A stretch of 64,000 nt of DNA from Dendrobates tinctorius (Eukaryota): contig NW_027361774.1 of NCBI RefSeq assembly GCF_039654945.1, forward strand, positions 434,001 to 498,000, read 5' to 3'. A program made the position numbers. Of the stretch, positions 7,154 to 19,100 are shown one piece after another. How positions within the stretch are numbered: position 1 is the stretch's first letter; the number at the start of each line of letters is the position of its first letter.

Positions 7154-10100
7154 AGAGACACACATTTATTACAATTTCATAATTGCAAAAAGGAGAAAGG
7201 GCATGCAAAACTTTGGGCATCCTTGGAGATTTGTGTACTGAGATAATTTTGACCAAGATTTCACACCTTAATTAGCTTGTTAGGGTTATGGTGAGATCAC
7301 ATGGTGACCAGGAGCTACAGTCTGAGGAAAGGGCTAAAAAGCCTTCACTAGACCCCTGTACAGCTGTATAATGAGGCCCAGGCTTTATAGTGAAGGGACA
7401 GGAGTGAGGGCCTGTTCCCAGGAGCTACAGTCTGATGAAAGGTCTAAAAAGCCTTCACTAGATCCCTGTACAGCTGTATAATGAGGCCCAGGCTTTATAG
7501 TGAAGGGACAGGAGTGAGGGCCTGATCCCAGGAGCTACAGTCTGAGGAAAGGGCTAAAAAGCCTTCACTAGATCCCTGTACAGCTGTATAATGAGGCCCA
7601 GGCTTTATAGTGAAGGGACAGGAGTGAGGGTCTGTTCCCAGGAGCTACAGTCTGAGGAAAGGGCTAAAAAGCCTTCACTAGATCCCTGTACAGCTGTATA
7701 ATGAGGCCCAGGCTTTATAGTGAAGGGACAGGAGTGAGGGCCTGCTCCCAGGAGCTACAGTCTGATGAAAGGTCTAAAAAGCCTTCACTAGATCCCTGTA
7801 CAGCTGTATAATGAGGCCCAGGCTTTATAGTGAAGGGACAGGAGTGAGGGTCTGTTCCCAGGAGCTACAGTCTGAGGAAAGGGCTAAAGAGCCTTCACTA
7901 GACCCCTGTACAGCTGTATAATGAGGCCCAGGCTTTATAGTGAAGGGACAGGAGTGAGGGACTGTTCCCAGGAGCTACAGTCTGAGGAAAGGGCTAAAAA
8001 GCCTTCACTAGACCCCTGTACAGCTGTATAATGAGGCCCAGGCTTTATAGTGAAGGGACAGGAGGGCCTGTGCCCAGGAGCTACAGTCTGAGGAAAGGGC
8101 TAAAGAGCCTTCACTAGTCCCCTGTACAGCTGTATAATGATTCCCAGGCTTTATAGTTGTGGCGCCCCTGAGGCTCAGTCGCCACAGAGGTACTGCACCT
8201 CCTCTCTCTCTTCATGATGTGTGGTGCCCCACCACCCAGGTAAGGTGGGAACTCCTTTCCATACTCCAACACCTGCACCCCACACAACAAGGTAGTTCTG
8301 CACAACCACAAGCGGCTTTGTACTAAGAGAGTAGCAGAGCACCTTTGGTGGTTCCCTGCTTGGAACACTGGACGTGCTGGGAGGTGGGTGGAGTTAAGAT
8401 ACATAAAAAGAGTGGGAAAGTGTAGGATTACAGAGCAGTCCGAGGTCAGTCAGACAGAAGGTCGGCGGAGTAGGAGGTCACTCTGAGAGGAGTGAGGATC
8501 CCTGGAAGAAGGGATGGAGGAAGGAGTGCTGCAGCTGCCTCAGTGACCTGAGCCAGCTGGCACGGGAAAGGAAAGGAGGAGAAAGACGTGAACTAAACCC
8601 TAAGCTTCCATAAGAGAGAGATTAGTACAGAACGAAGGAGTATAGAGAACAGAGAGAAGTGGGTTGGAAGAGGAACCCTGCCTACAGGTTCTCAGCGCAA
8701 GGCTGGGGCCCGGACCCCGAGGTTGTATGGACACTTATGGTACTGCAGCAGACACCGGTGGAGTAGCTGGCTGTAAATGCACTACTCCCATCTAAGACTT
8801 GGGGCACAACAGCGACTGTATAGAGAGCCGGGACTCAGGAGAAGGGAGTCCGCGAAGCAGGCTACAGCTGTCTGCCGTACAAGTAGAGTTCTTGGGAACA
8901 TCAGTCAGGAAGAACTCCAGTGTAACACGGTACTAGGAGATCTTCACACTTTAAGGCGCTATAGAGGAGTCGTTCAGGAAGGTACATGTTGGCGGAGTGC
9001 TAGAGAGGAGAGTGCTAACTTGCCCGGGGGGGGGGTTGATTGAGTCTCTGACCCGGAGGACATGGTACGGAAGCAGGCACTACAGACTGTGAGAAAAGCT
9101 TTGGAACTACATTCCCTGGTGTCCTCCATTCCTTCCTGCGTCCGCCTGCCTGGCACTGCTACATCCCCTGCGCCAGACACTACACCATCTAAGTGTCATC
9201 ACATCTACACTGCCCTGGGGCTACAGCTTCACCTGTGGGGAGCTATACCATCTAAGCTGCAACACACCACCAGCCCCAGAGGATCTGCATATCCAACGAA
9301 AGAAAACGATGATTAAAAGGCTTTTTTTACTAATATAAAGAGAAACTTTATTGTTTAGAACCATAGATAAAATATTACATATCACCAATTAGGGGATTAA
9401 GGGGAAGTAAACATACACATATGTATATTGTGATTACACATCTAAAAAGACGCACATAACCAGCACCTGAAGGTGTAACCTATACACCTCCAATTATATG
9501 ACTATCAAAAATTGACAGTTTTGCTGAAAAATAGTACATCAATCTCAAAGTGGACACTACAATATTATGTCCTCATATCCTACAGCTAATTTAGAAAATT
9601 CATATTATAGATGACTATTATATCATGCCTCCACCGCCGAGAAGCTAACCGTTATATATAATGGACGTAATCACTTATAATAATAGATCTTATATGGTGT
9701 GGTACCTAAATGTAGCCACTTATCCTGGCTAATCACCCATAATGTTATCTACAATACCGCCAGCAAGTGGCCACTAAACATACCATAGTGATTATCACCG
9801 GCAACAGCCGCTATGTACAAAAAATCACATCACACCATAATGGCCATTACCAGCAATGGCCGCTACATATGTAGATTAACGTCCTTACTAAACTAATTAT
9901 TACCGGCAGTGGTGGTCTGGAGGTGCACAGGTGCCTGGGTAGCGCGTCCGCCCCGACGCGCGTTTCGGACCCGCCTTTTTCAAGGGGCCTAGCCGGTATG
10001 TACACCGGCGTCCTTAAATAGTGTACCCGGACGCCGTGAAATCGGCGTTACCGGAAGTCATGTCCGCGGCCCGGAAGTGACGCGCTCTGTCACCGAGGCA

Positions 10101-16100: not shown

Positions 16101-19100
16101 TTACCATGTGTCCTAGTCATACTTGGTATATTTAGCAGAGGATCTGCATGCAGCGTCGGCCTAACATCTCACTTGCCGAACACCACAGGCGGCGTCACAA
16201 ACTATTCTATTTAAACTACATTACAGACTACCATTGATTTGGGCACCCAGGGCCACGGACCAGGTCACCGCCGCTGTGACACATCCCTCTGACACCGGCA
16301 AGGTACCGAGTACCCCACAGCCCTTGGTGGAGGGCGACCCATAGTGAACGGACAGGAGTGAGGGCCTGTTCCCAGGAGCTACAGTCTGAGGAAAGGGATA
16401 AAAAGCCTTCACTAGACCCCTGTACAGCTGTATAATGAGGCCCAGGCTTTATAGTGAAGGGACAGGAGTGAGGGCCTGTGCCCAGGAGCTACAGTCTGAG
16501 GAAAGGGCTAAAAAGCCTTCACTAGACTCCTGTACAGCTGTATATTGAGGCCCAGGCTTTATAGTGAAGGGAAGGAGTGAGGGGCTGTTCCCAGGAGCTA
16601 CAGTCTGAGGAAAGCGCTAAAAAGCCTTCACTAGACCCCTGTACAGCTCTATAATGAGGCCCAGGCATTACAGTGAAGGGACAGGAGTGAGGGCCTGTGC
16701 CCAGGAGCTACAGACTGAGGAAAGGGCTACAAAGCCTTCACTAGACCCCTGTACAGCTGTATAATGAGGCCCAGGCTTTATAGTGAAGGGACAGGAGTGA
16801 GGGCCTGTGCCCAGGAGCTACAGACTGAGGAAAGGGCTAAAAAGCCTTCACTAGACCCCTGTACAGCTGTATAATGAGGCCCAGGCTTTATAAGTGAAGG
16901 GACAGGAGTGAGGGCCTGATCCCAGGAGCTACAGTCTGAAGAAAGGGCTAAAAAGCCTTCACTAGACCCCTGTACAGCTCTATAATGAGGCCCAGGCATT
17001 ACAGTGAAGGGACAGGAGTGAGGGCCTGTGTCCAGGAGCTACAGTCTGAGGAAAGGGCTAAAAAGCTTTCACTACACCACTGTACAGCTGTATAATGAGG
17101 CCAAGGCTATATAGTGAAGGGACAGGAGCGAGGGCCTGTTCACACGAGCTACAGTCTGAGAAAAGGGCTAAAAAGCCTTCACTAAACCCCTGTACAGCTG
17201 TATAATGAGGCCCAGGCTTTATAGTGAAGGGACAGGAGTGAGGGCCTGTTCCCAGGAGCTACAATCTGAGGAAAGGGCTAAAAAGTCTTCACTAAACCCC
17301 TGTACAGCTGTATAGTGAGGCCTAGGCTTTATAGTGAAGGGACTGGAGTGAGGGCCTGTTCCCAGGAGCTCCACTCTGAGGAAAGGGCTAAAAAGCCTTC
17401 ACTAGACCCCTATACAGCTGTATAATGAGGCCCAGGCTTTATAGTGAAGGTATAGGAGTGAGGGCCTGTGCCCAGGAGCTACAGTCTGAGGAAAGGGCTA
17501 CAAAGCCTTCACTAGTCCCCTGTACAGCTGTATAATGAGGCCCAGGCTTTATAGTGAAGGGACAGGAGTGAGTGCCTGATCCCAGGAGCTACAGTCTGAA
17601 GAAAGGGCTAAAAAGCCTTCACTAGACCCCTGTACAGCTCTATAATGAGGCCCAGGCTTTACAGTGAAGGGACAGGAGTGAGGGCCTGTGCCCAGGAGCT
17701 ACAGTCTGAGGAAAGGGCTAAAAAGCCTTCACTAGTCCCCTGTACAGCTGTATAATGAGGCCCAGGCTTTACAGTGAAGGGACAGGAGTGAGGGCCTGTG
17801 CCCAGGAGCTACAGTCTGAGGAAAGGGCTAAAAAGCCTTCACTAGTCCCCTGTACAGCTGTATAATGATTCCCAGGCTTTATAGTGAAGGGACAGGAGTG
17901 AGGGCCTGTGCCCAGGAGCTACAGTCTGAGGAAATGGCTAAAAAGCCTTCACTAGACCCCTCTACAGCTGTATAATGAGGCCAAGGCTTTATAGTGAAGG
18001 GAAGGAGTGAGGGCCTGTGCCCAGGATCTACAGTCTGAGTAAAGGGCTAAAAAGCCTTCACTAGACCCCTGTACAGCTGTATAATGAGGCACAGGCTTTA
18101 TAGTGAAGGGAAGGAGTGAGGGCCTGTGCCAAGGATCTACAGTCTGAGGAAGGGGCTAAAAAGCCATCACTAGACCCCAGTACAGCTGTATAATGAGGCC
18201 CAGGCTTTATAGTGAAGGGACAGGAGTGAGGGCCTGTTCCCAGGAGCTACAGTCTGAGGAAAGGGCTAAAAAGCCTTCACTAGACCCCTGTACAGCTGTA
18301 TAATGAGGCCCAGGCTTTAGAGTGAAGGGACAGGAGTGAGGGCCTGTTCCCAGGAGCTACAGTCTGAGGAAAGGGCTAAAAAGCCTTCCTAGACCCCGTA
18401 CAGCTGTATAATGAGGCCCAGGCTTTATAGTGAAGGGAAGGAGTGAGGGCCTGTGCCTAGGATCTACAGTCTGAGGAAAGGGCTAAAAAGCCTTCACTAG
18501 ACCCCTGTACAGCTGTATAATGAGGCCCAGGCTTTATAGTGAAGGGACAGGAGGGCCTGTGCCCAGGAGCTACAGTCTGAGGAAGGGGCTATAAAGCCTT
18601 CACTAGACCCCTGTACAGCTGTATAATGAGGCTCAGGCTTTATAGTGAAGGGACAGGAGTGAGGGCCTGTGCCCAGGAGCTACAGTCTGAGGAAAGGGCT
18701 ATAAAGCCTTCACTAGACCCCTGTACAGCTGTATAATGAGGCCCAGGCTTTATAGTGAAGGGACAGGAGTGAGGGCCTGTGCCCAGGATCTACAGTCTGA
18801 GTAAAGGGCTAAAAAGCCTTCACTCGACCCCTGTACAGCTGTATAATGAGGCCCAGGCTTTATAGTGAAGGGACAGGAGTGAGGGCCTGTGCCCAGGAGC
18901 TACAGTGTGAGGAAAGGGCTAAAGAGCCTTCACTAGACCCCTGTACAGCTGTATAATGAGGCCCAGGCTTTATAGTGAAGGGACAGGAGTGAGGGCCTGT
19001 GCCCAGGAGCTACAGTCTGAGGAAAGGGCTAAAAAGCCTTCACTAGACCCCTGTACAGCTGTATAATGAGGCCCAGGCTTTATAGTGAAGGGAAGGAGTG

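What the first reader, a model, noticed from the sequence alone, without database searches (positions are those of the whole stretch)
9277..16149. Single Penelope-like insertion forming a 2.63-kb inverted repeat with both 3' ends facing outward
Seen: one 14-bp TSD brackets everything. The left arm (9288-11923) mirrors 13390-16028 with only a handful of substitutions and a 3-nt indel, around a ~1.47-kb unique spacer. The left arm lacks the 107-nt tail (16029-16135) and joins the target through CAT microhomology. Known: PLEs often have inverted terminal repeats. Here the inverted arm extends through the endonuclease and half the RT. Inference: a footprint of priming from both target strands or of template switching, and the insertion is young.
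Basis: partly seen in the sequence, partly recalled or inferred. Interest (0 to 1): 0.65.

Follow-up and report, generated by a model that had tools for sequence, protein, structure and literature searches.

The report
Inverted double-copy Penelope-like retrotransposon insertion
One jumping-gene insertion in a frog-type genome was laid down as two head-to-head copies inside a single 14-base target duplication, which is the ordinary, already described way this class of retrotransposon inserts.

Summary
Arms 9288-11923 and 13390-16028 differ by 11 substitutions and one 3-nt indel. They lie around a 1466-nt spacer, inside an exact 14-bp duplication. A ~75% identical paralogue of the target elsewhere in the window (2311-2644) is uninterrupted and carries the duplicated sequence once. 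So 9291-16135 is one insertion, not a fold-back assembly error.

The element is a Penelope-like element (PLE) with a C-terminal endonuclease. It has RT motifs, DKG, a GIY-YIG core with CCHH, and a CxxCxxC linker that points to the Neptune type. Both copies are 5'-truncated: the long one at about codon 101, the short one at RT motif 4.

An inverted 5'-truncated copy at the 5' side, with a "tail" at one end only, is a published PLE hallmark. A purified PLE protein cleaves and extends both target strands and starts reverse transcription at two internal sites. Dual-strand priming is therefore the best explanation.

The insertion is fairly young (0.42% arm divergence, enriched at CpG) but coding-dead (three frameshifts). 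The only departures are a 107-nt tail against the usual 30-40 nt and no hammerhead motif. Other copies could not be surveyed. Interest is low.

The parts
9277..9290 (.). Left copy of the 14-bp target-site duplication CAGAGGATCTGCAT. Its last 3 nt (CAT, 9288-9290) could equally be the first 3 nt of the left arm (microhomology).
   Evidence: present once in the paralogous empty site
9288..11923 (-). Short copy (left arm), antisense on the + strand. It is 5'-truncated at RT motif 4 and lacks the last 107 nt of the long copy. It holds the 3' UTR (9288-10635) and an open 431-codon C-terminal ORF with stop (10636-11931 as listed).
11920..11927 (.). Inner head-to-head junction (11923|11924) between the 5' ends of the two copies. 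Reading across it gives Leu-Met-Gln-Leu-Leu, as in relatives, so up to 4 nt (CTTA) may be shared microhomology. A TGCA palindrome sits at 11924-11927.
   Evidence: the microhomology is an inference
11924..16135 (+). Long copy, 4212 nt, sense on the + strand. It is 5'-truncated at about codon 101 of relatives that are 1016-1024 aa long.
11924..14677 (+). Broken ORF of the long copy, read in four frame pieces: 11924-12906, about 12890-13123, 13123-13380 and 13385-14677 (stop 14675-14677). Frameshifts: +1 in the A7 run at 12889-12895, -1 at 13124-13125, -2 at 13381-13384.
12805..12813 (+). DKG motif, diagnostic of PLE ORFs.
   Evidence: named as a PLE motif
13415..13552 (+). RT motif 4 (QGTAMG, 13415-13432) to motif 5 (YIDD, 13541-13552). 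Mirrored in the left arm.
   Evidence: RVT_1 found in 21 of 25 aligned relatives
14228..14647 (+). CxxCxxC linker finger (from 14228) and the GIY-YIG endonuclease: VYY...C.C...YVG at 14339-14383, then R346, H350, H372, E409 and N425. Mirrored in the left arm.
14678..16135 (+). 3' untranslated region, 1458 nt, AT-rich with a CpG-rich block at 15078-15377 (mirror 9939-10238). AATAAA at 15964-15969 is followed by an A7 run.
16029..16135 (+). 107-nt 'tail', present only at the 3' end of the long copy. It contains a 10-bp stem, 16062-16071 pairing with 16104-16113.
16136..16149 (.). Right copy of the 14-bp target-site duplication.
2311..2644 (+). Paralogous uninterrupted target (empty-site equivalent). 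The sequence matching the duplication is at 2434-2447.

Best explanation
This is one retrotransposition event of an endonuclease-bearing Penelope-like element, Neptune-type by its linker finger, in an anuran-type genome.

Shown here:
- The whole 6845-bp insert (9291-16135) sits between one 14-bp target duplication.
- It consists of two 5'-truncated copies of the same element joined head to head, with both 3' ends outward.
- Only one copy carries the terminal 107 nt.

Inferred mechanism:
1. The element's GIY-YIG nuclease made nicks staggered by 14 bp.
2. The bottom-strand 3'-OH primed reverse transcription at the 3'-most start site (16135) and produced the long copy.
3. The top-strand 3'-OH (...GCAT-3') primed a second cDNA 107 nt further in. 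It paired with AUG at 16026-16028 and produced the short copy.
4. Because both cDNAs cover the same 2.6 kb, two RNA molecules were used, or one RNA was copied twice with strand displacement.
5. The two cDNA 3' ends then met and each was completed on the other by annealing or a template jump, possibly through up to 4 nt (CTTA).

After insertion, both arms decayed independently by about 0.2% each. The template was probably already coding-defective.
For: Single event: an exact 14-bp duplication lies at both outer ends. The paralogous uninterrupted site carries that sequence once, with both flanks contiguous.

PLE identity: 450 homologues at E<=0.001 among the 8000 candidates scored, the best being dendrobatid frog proteins at 66% identity. 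RVT_1 was found in 21 of 25 and GIY-YIG in 16 of 25 aligned relatives. The window's protein keeps every invariant column, including YIDD, the two Cys between GIY and YIG, and R, H, E, N. DKG is present. These are the motifs named for PLEs.

Geometry: the left junction reads target ...GCAT followed by the antisense element. That is what extension of the top-strand 3'-OH on an RNA carrying AUG at 16026-16028 would give.

[quoted passage not shown] It initiates reverse transcription at two internal sites, and the genomic tail is the sequence between them. The protein is also predicted to be a dimer.

Published genomics: an inverted 5'-truncated copy adjacent to the 5' end, and a tail at one end only, are typical of PLE insertions.

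Arm differences look like later decay. Four of 11 substitutions lie at CpG sites, which make up 7.4% of sites (binomial P=0.006). Derived states occur in both arms: the nearly invariant Pro25 is lost in the right arm, and a CpG is lost in each arm. The indel is a slip in a TA run.

Inner junction: the codons read across it give Leu-Met. Met is present at that place in 4 of 5 long relatives, and Leu precedes it in 3 of the 4 whose sequence was printed.
Against: - No step of the mechanism was observed. One copy cannot separate dual priming from a fold-back of a single cDNA.
- The tail is 107 nt, about three times the 30-40 nt described. The left end could be an accidental internal priming event rather than a regular second start site.
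- In vitro, the start sites showed no homology to the cleaved DNA. Here there are 3 matching nucleotides, which happens by chance about 1 time in 64.
- The target is not AT-rich, unlike the sites cleaved by the Anolis and Drosophila enzymes.
- No direct pseudo-LTR and no hammerhead motif are present in this copy.
- The inner-junction microhomology rests on protein relatives, not on another DNA copy.
- Gene conversion between the arms could make the insertion look younger than it is.
Confidence: 0.7

Rival explanations
1. A single cDNA with fold-back (self-priming) or a template switch. Only the bottom strand primed. After copying the RNA to codon ~101, the nascent cDNA snapped back on itself (or the RT switched onto its own product) at the 13390-equivalent and copied itself back towards the 3' end. 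It stopped 107 nt short and was joined to the upstream target end through the CAT microhomology.
For: It gives the same final arrangement of arms, spacer and single duplication (geometry worked out). Self-priming has been proposed for PLE inverted repeats because palindromes occur at their inverted junctions. A TGCA palindrome lies at 11924-11927.
Against: The junction is asymmetric by 1466 nt, so it is not a hairpin at a terminal palindrome. The 3' end of the long cDNA (complement of 11924-11933) matches the site it would have to anneal to (13380-13389) at only 3 of 10 positions, and the last three are mismatched (read). The 2013 proposal also needs an antisense template to give head-to-head copies. 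In vitro, both target strands are extended directly.
Confidence: 0.2
2. Inverted duplication after insertion. A simple 5'-truncated sense copy inserted first. Later a replication or repair error duplicated 2.6 kb of it in inverted orientation at its 5' side.
For: The 0.42% divergence would allow a later duplication. Inverted duplications do arise by replication template switching (general knowledge, recalled).
Against: The duplicated arm ends exactly at the left target duplication, with a 3-nt overlap, and no target sequence is lost or added compared with the paralogous site. A later rearrangement has no reason to respect that boundary. The arrangement matches the recurrent PLE pattern.
Confidence: 0.05
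3. Two independent insertions. A second, antisense copy landed exactly between the left duplication and the 5' end of an older sense copy, or the reverse.
For: PLE proteins can cleave within their own sequences, and nested PLE insertions exist.
Against: There is no second duplication. The sequences next to 11923/11924 do not repeat at either outer end. Neither copy is split by the other. The two copies are as alike as one event plus decay would predict.
Confidence: 0.03
4. Fold-back assembly artefact, such as a chimeric long read or a missed adapter.
For: Palindromic structures are a known assembly hazard, and PLE tandem/inverted structures are said to trouble assemblies.
Against: Artefactual fold-backs are symmetric, with no spacer, and do not regain the other flank. 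Here there is a 1466-nt unique spacer. The arm differences are enriched at CpG. The tail is asymmetric. The far flank continues the target exactly after a 14-bp duplication, as the paralogous site confirms.
Confidence: 0.02

Closest known systems
Typical genomic arrangement of endonuclease-bearing Penelope-like elements (Craig et al. 2021, PMC8557442, fig. 2 legend and text; Pen2a_Av of Adineta vaga, Arkhipova et al. 2013, PMC3846280)
   Same: An inverted 5'-truncated copy abuts the 5' side of the main copy, so the insert is flanked by inverted repeats. One target duplication brackets everything. An extension ('tail') is present at one end only. 5' truncation is frequent.
   Different: The tail is 107 nt here against 30-40 nt (31 nt in Pen2a_Av). 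The duplication is 14 bp against the 8-10 bp reported there. This copy has no direct pseudo-LTR and no hammerhead motif. The inverted arm is 2.6 kb and includes coding sequence, not a pseudo-LTR alone.
PAc, the Poseidon element of Anolis carolinensis, studied in vitro (Frangieh et al. 2024, PMC11167929)
   Same: Both target strands are used as primers. There are two alternative reverse-transcription start sites inside the RNA, and their spacing is the tail. Same domain order: N-terminal helix, RT, then C-terminal GIY-YIG.
   Different: PAc starts 111-118 nt inside the ORF of the next tandem unit and carries a hammerhead at the ORF start. Here the first ~100 codons of relatives are found nowhere in the insert, including its 3' end. 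PAc cuts AT-rich DNA, whereas this target is not AT-rich. PAc belongs to the Penelope/Poseidon clade, which lacks the CX2-5CxxC linker that this element has.
Twin priming of human LINE-1 (Ostertag and Kazazian 2001; recalled, not read here; the phrase appears in the listings)
   Same: Both 3'-OH ends of a staggered break prime cDNA synthesis. The second primes internally through short microhomology. The two cDNAs join through microhomology. The result is an inverted 5' part inside one target duplication.
   Different: In L1 the inverted and direct parts are neighbouring, essentially non-overlapping stretches of one RNA. Here the two parts overlap by 2.6 kb, so the same region was copied twice. 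The enzyme family also differs (APE-type nuclease against GIY-YIG).
DIRS-type retrotransposons with inverted terminal repeats
   Same: A retroelement bounded by long inverted repeats.
   Different: DIRS elements lack target duplications and have an internal complementary region. Here there is a 14-bp duplication, a GIY-YIG nuclease, and arms that are simply truncated copies of the element.

Membership tests
Penelope-like elements with endonuclease (canonical, C-terminal EN) | Reverse transcriptase domain of the PLE type | tested here: met
   QGTAMG and YIDD are present, with invariant D59 and D60. RVT_1 was found in 21 of 25 aligned relatives. The profile hits group II intron RT structures at E=0.004-0.01. 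The window's own 434-aa piece, which holds only the second half of the RT, does not reach Pfam RVT_1 by itself. No phylogeny with named PLE or telomerase references was made.
Penelope-like elements with endonuclease (canonical, C-terminal EN) | GIY-YIG nuclease C-terminal to the RT, with catalytic R, H, E and N | tested here: met
   VYY...YVG lies at 14339-14383. R346, H350, E409 and N425 are invariant in the 25-sequence alignment. The Pfam GIY-YIG match is weak for the window's protein (E=0.03, below cut-off) but was found in 16 of 25 relatives. The profile hits an 'Endonuclease II' structure (2wsh) at E=0.006; that it belongs to the GIY-YIG family is recalled.
Penelope-like elements with endonuclease (canonical, C-terminal EN) | CCHH finger with the two cysteines between GIY and YIG | tested here: met
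   C329 and C331 lie between Y325 and Y335-G337. H350 and H372 are invariant. The feature is defined.
Penelope-like elements with endonuclease (canonical, C-terminal EN) | DKG motif in the N-terminal part | tested here: met
   ADKGSN at 12805-12813; named as a PLE motif.
Penelope-like elements with endonuclease (canonical, C-terminal EN) | Insertion architecture: 5' truncation, adjacent inverted 5'-truncated copy, one-sided tail, target duplication of variable length | tested here: met
   against the descriptions. The tail is longer here (107 nt).
Penelope-like elements with endonuclease (canonical, C-terminal EN) | Partial tandem giving direct pseudo-LTRs | tested here: not met
   No direct repeat links the 5' and 3' parts of the long copy. 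This is expected for a copy truncated inside the ORF, so it does not count against membership.
Penelope-like elements with endonuclease (canonical, C-terminal EN) | Hammerhead ribozyme motif in the pseudo-LTR | tested here: not met
   No Rfam hammerhead hit at E<=1 in 8500-17000. No CTGANGA on either strand of 11924-16135. The gapped core pattern has 0 matches in the window. In PAc the motif sits at the ORF start, which is the part missing from this copy, so the family may still have one.
Neptune clade, as against Penelope/Poseidon | [quoted passage not shown] | tested here: met
   C286-x2-C289-x2-C292 (CGRCVTC from 14228) is invariant in the alignment. Neptune and Poseidon are the two groups reported in vertebrates.
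Neptune clade, as against Penelope/Poseidon | Placement inside the Neptune clade in an RT phylogeny | not tested
   No named reference sequences (Repbase) were available in the tools.
LINE-1-type twin priming product | Inverted and direct parts are adjacent, non-overlapping segments of one RNA | tested here: not met
   The two parts overlap by 2636 nt. It works like twin priming but is not that product type.
DIRS-like retrotransposons | No target duplication; internal complementary region | tested here: not met
   An exact 14-bp duplication is present. GIY-YIG, not a recombinase, is the only nuclease-type domain found.

The most novel reading that the evidence does not exclude
This locus may be a clean in-vivo record of coordinated double target-primed reverse transcription by a dimeric PLE particle. 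Each nicked target strand primed its own cDNA on its own RNA. The starts were 107 nt apart, a much longer 'tail' than the 30-40 nt described, in a Neptune-type frog family whose start sites lie outside the ORF. The two cDNAs were then joined through a few bases of microhomology. If the same two start points and this junction type recur in other copies, PLE inverted repeats in general would come from dual-strand priming, not from self-priming on an antisense template. The spacing of start sites would also be a family-specific trait.
Probability: 0.4. Interest if true: 0.45.

Novelty: new member of a known kind. Interest (0 to 1): 0.22.

Why it matters
The locus mainly shows that the finding is ordinary for this class of element. 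Kilobase-scale inverted repeats around PLE copies are a normal insertion product. They should not be read as assembly errors, hairpin artefacts or two events.

Its modest value is as a well-documented single-event example. It has an internal empty-site control, both junctions are readable to the base, and both copies are long. The example agrees with the 2024 in-vitro report that a PLE protein extends both target strands.

It also suggests that the one-sided 'tail' can be about 100 nt in a Neptune-type frog family. The two outward-facing 3' regions each carry a CpG-rich block. These could act as outward promoters, or, if read through, give a 2.6-kb hairpin RNA. Both ideas are untested.

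Tried and rejected
- **Hammerhead ribozyme.** I looked with Rfam at E<=1, with a gapped core pattern over the whole window (0 matches against 0.47 expected) and with the bare core on both strands of the long copy (none). Nothing was found, so neither the tail nor the arm boundary can be tied to a ribozyme cut site. The neighbouring 110-bp satellite gave no hammerhead hit in the part scanned (16233-17000), so it is not shown to be a PLE-derived retrozyme.
- **Other copies.** A blastn of the long copy against the window and tblastn searches with 14 relatives found only this insertion. 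No survey of arm lengths or ends was possible.
- **ORF start at the 3' end, as in PAc.** The N-terminal ~105 residues of five long relatives have no match in the insert (best E=0.13).
- **Solved structures.** The single protein gave none. The profile gave only weak RT and nuclease hits.
- **Pfam on the window's own ORF pieces.** No significant family was found. Identity rests on relatives and motifs.
- **Frameshifts clustered in the spacer.** Rejected as a clue. All three falling in the unique 1466 of 2754 coding nucleotides has a chance of about 0.15.
- **Arkhipova 2006.** Not held in the library.
- **Frame pieces.** The four frame pieces of the broken ORF were translated and searched separately.
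- **Closed or unsuitable resources.** The figures S1-S2 of PMC11167929 and the supplements of PMC8557442 may hold tail lengths and end positions for Neptune-type elements that bear on the 107-nt tail.

Full report
**1. The observation**

The window contains no N. The repeat finder reports two abutting perfect-match blocks that together form the inverted repeat 9288-11923 / 13390-16028. A global alignment of the arms (2636 and 2639 nt) gives 11 substitutions and one 3-nt indel, TAT at 14817-14819 in a TA-rich run. blastn gives 99.47% identity.

The spacer 11924-13389 is 1466 nt. The 14-mer CAGAGGATCTGCAT occurs at 9277-9290 and 16136-16149 (family D8). The right copy runs 107 nt past the point where the left arm stops. 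The last three bases of the left duplication (CAT) are also the first three of the arm.

**2. One insertion, and not an artefact**

The flanks have a diverged paralogue in the same window. Left flank 9153-9287 matches 2311-2444 at 74%, and right flank 16136-16341 matches 2434-2644 at 76%. The two matches overlap on a single copy of the duplicated sequence, CAGAGGAACTGTCT at 2434-2447, which is 11 of 14 identical. The homologues of both flanks lie directly on either side of it.

This serves as an empty-site control. The target was contiguous, 14 bp of it were duplicated, and everything from 9291 to 16135 (6845 bp) lies between the two copies.

A fold-back assembly error would be symmetric, would have no 1.47-kb unique centre and would not resume the target after a duplication. 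Two independent insertions would leave a second duplication or a split copy, and neither is present.

**3. What the element is**

*Relatives and domains.* The C-terminal ORF (13373-14677, 434 codons) has 450 relatives at E<=0.001 among the 8000 candidates scored. The closest are uncharacterised proteins of dendrobatid and other frogs, at up to 66% identity. Many carry RVT_1 and GIY-YIG. The window's own pieces do not reach Pfam thresholds; GIY-YIG scores E=0.03. In a 25-sequence alignment, 21 members match RVT_1 and 16 match GIY-YIG.

*Motifs.* The window's protein keeps all invariant columns:
- QGTAMG and YIDD.
- Y325 and Y335-G337 (GIY and YIG), with C329 and C331 between them.
- R346, H350, H372, E409 and N425.

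The profile weakly hits group II intron RT structures and an Endonuclease II structure. DKG lies at 12805-12813.

*Classification.* Craig et al. 2021 (passages) give DKG, the CCHH finger with two cysteines between GIY and YIG, and the R, H, E, N residues as the marks of PLE nucleases. They give a CX2-5CxxC linker finger as present in Neptune and Nematis but absent in Penelope/Poseidon. This element has CGRCVTC (C286, C289, C292, all invariant). I therefore file it as an endonuclease-bearing PLE of Neptune type. No phylogeny with named references was possible.

*Host.* PLEs are reported absent from mammals and birds. Together with the frog relatives, this means the window is not human.

**4. 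Anatomy of the two copies**

*Long copy (11924-16135, + strand, 4212 nt).* Homology to relatives follows four frame pieces. The three frameshifts are:
- +1 in an A7 run at 12889-12895.
- -1 at 13124-13125.
- -2 at 13381-13384.

I translated and searched the pieces separately and made no joined protein. Relatives 1016-1024 aa long align from about residue 101 at 11923/11924. Their first ~100 residues match nothing in the insert (best E=0.13). The long copy is therefore 5'-truncated inside the ORF.

*Short copy.* It is truncated at the 13390-equivalent, just before RT motif 4. It keeps an open 431-codon reading frame.

*3' region.* After the stop at 14675-14677 comes a 1458-nt AT-rich 3' region. 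It has a CpG-rich block at 15078-15377 (GC 0.61-0.72, CpG observed/expected up to 1.4). AATAAA at 15964 is followed by an A7 run. The terminal 107 nt can form a 10-bp stem (z=-2.5).

*What is absent.* This copy has no direct pseudo-LTR and no hammerhead motif. In the Anolis element the ribozyme sits at the ORF start, which is the part this copy lacks.

**5. Age and state**

The arms differ at 0.42% of sites. Four of the 11 substitutions lie at CpG sites, which are 7.4% of positions (P=0.006). Derived states are found in both arms. The nearly invariant Pro25 of RT motif 4 is Thr in the right arm. CpG is lost once in the left arm and twice in the right. This pattern is what independent germline decay of two initially identical copies would give.

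With vertebrate neutral rates of 1-2 x 10^-9 per site per year (recalled, not tested), the divergence corresponds to roughly 1-2 million years. Gene conversion between the arms would make this an underestimate.

About three substitutions and fewer than one indel would be expected in the spacer since insertion. Three frameshifts are seen, so the template RNA was probably already defective and was mobilised in trans (inference).

**6. Mechanism**

*The junction sequences.* The sequence itself shows that both 3' ends abut the target. At the left junction the top strand reads ...GCAT and then the antisense element from the 16025/16028-equivalent. This is what extension of the top-strand 3'-OH would give if it paired with AUG at 16026-16028 of a sense RNA. 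At the right junction the bottom-strand 3'-OH is joined to the complement of the element's last base, with no shared bases.

*Published biochemistry.* Frangieh et al. 2024 (whole main text read) report the following for the purified Anolis PLE protein:
- It cleaves and extends both target strands, unlike R2 and L1.
- Reverse transcription starts at two adjacent internal RNA sites.
- The genomic 'tail' is the stretch between those sites.
- The protein is predicted to be a dimer.

*Published genomics.* Craig et al. 2021 and Arkhipova et al. 2013 (passages) describe the inverted 5'-truncated copy at the 5' side, the one-sided tail and the single duplication as typical. The curation guide of Goubert et al. 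2022 says the same in brief.

*Best reading.* Dual-strand target-primed reverse transcription, followed by joining of the two cDNA ends. Because the arms overlap by 2.6 kb, the same region was copied twice, from two RNAs or from one RNA with displacement.

*Inner junction.* Reading across 11923/11924 gives Leu-Met-Gln-Leu-Leu. Met is present at that place in 4 of 5 long relatives, and Leu precedes it in 3 of the 4 whose sequence was printed. Up to 4 nt (CTTA) may therefore be shared by both cDNAs. This is an inference that needs another DNA copy to confirm.

*Fold-back rival.* It gives the same map. But the long cDNA's 3' end matches the site where it would have to anneal at only 3 of 10 positions, and its last three bases are mismatched. 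The junction is also not a symmetric palindrome of the kind that prompted the self-priming idea.

**7. Comparison and novelty**

The locus works like L1 twin priming (recalled), but its two parts overlap instead of abutting. It matches the canonical PLE insertion pattern in every tested structural respect except three:
- The tail is longer (107 nt against 30-40).
- There is no direct pseudo-LTR, as expected for a truncated copy.
- There is no hammerhead, possibly for the same reason.

I found no paper that links PLE inverted copies to 'twin priming' by name. Of the 3 papers holding both terms, none has either term in its title or abstract; I read only the listing. The link follows directly from the 2024 in-vitro result.

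**8. What stayed unchecked**

Other copies of the family, raw reads, population or orthologous alleles, and an RT phylogeny with named references were all out of reach. The supplements of the two key papers were closed.

**Verdict.** The thing itself is a new member of a known kind, and interest is low (0.22).

Noticed in passing
window 7308-8157, 16341-25786 and 53102-54019: A 110-bp satellite lies on both sides of the insertion: 7.8 copies upstream and 86 copies starting about 190 bp downstream. It appears again in reverse orientation at 53102-54019. The PLE sits in a unique stretch between two arrays. No hammerhead hit was found in the part scanned (16233-17000).
   Followed up: partly
window 1901-2644 versus 8694-9287 and 16136-16341: The target region is itself part of a repeated unit about 71-76% identical to a second copy in the window. 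I used this as an empty-site control. I did not look into what the unit is.
   Followed up: partly
window 15078-15377, mirrored at 9939-10238: A CpG-rich block (GC 0.61-0.72, CpG observed/expected up to 1.4) lies inside the otherwise AT-rich 3' region and is followed by a TATTTAAG box near 15295. PLE pseudo-LTRs carry the promoter. The insert may therefore hold two outward-facing promoters. A read-through transcript would fold into a 2.6-kb hairpin.
   Followed up: no
window 13381-13384: The 2-nt deletion that breaks the ORF of the long copy lies only 5-9 nt upstream of the point (13390) where the short copy's homology ends. The chance that one of three indels falls this close is about 2%. I have no explanation and treat it as coincidence.
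   Followed up: partly
window 15964-15996: AATAAA followed about 20 nt later by an encoded A7 run lies about 140 nt before the element's 3' end. The template RNA must have read through this putative poly(A) site. That fits internal initiation on read-through or multi-unit transcripts.
   Followed up: no
window 26026-26958 and 48819-49511: Two arrays of the same 30-bp GC-rich minisatellite (31.8 and 23.1 copies), in the same orientation and 22 kb apart.
   Followed up: no
window 38985-39445: A tandem repeat of period 84 bp with 5.5 copies. A period of 28 codons is typical of C2H2 zinc-finger arrays (recalled). Not checked.
   Followed up: no
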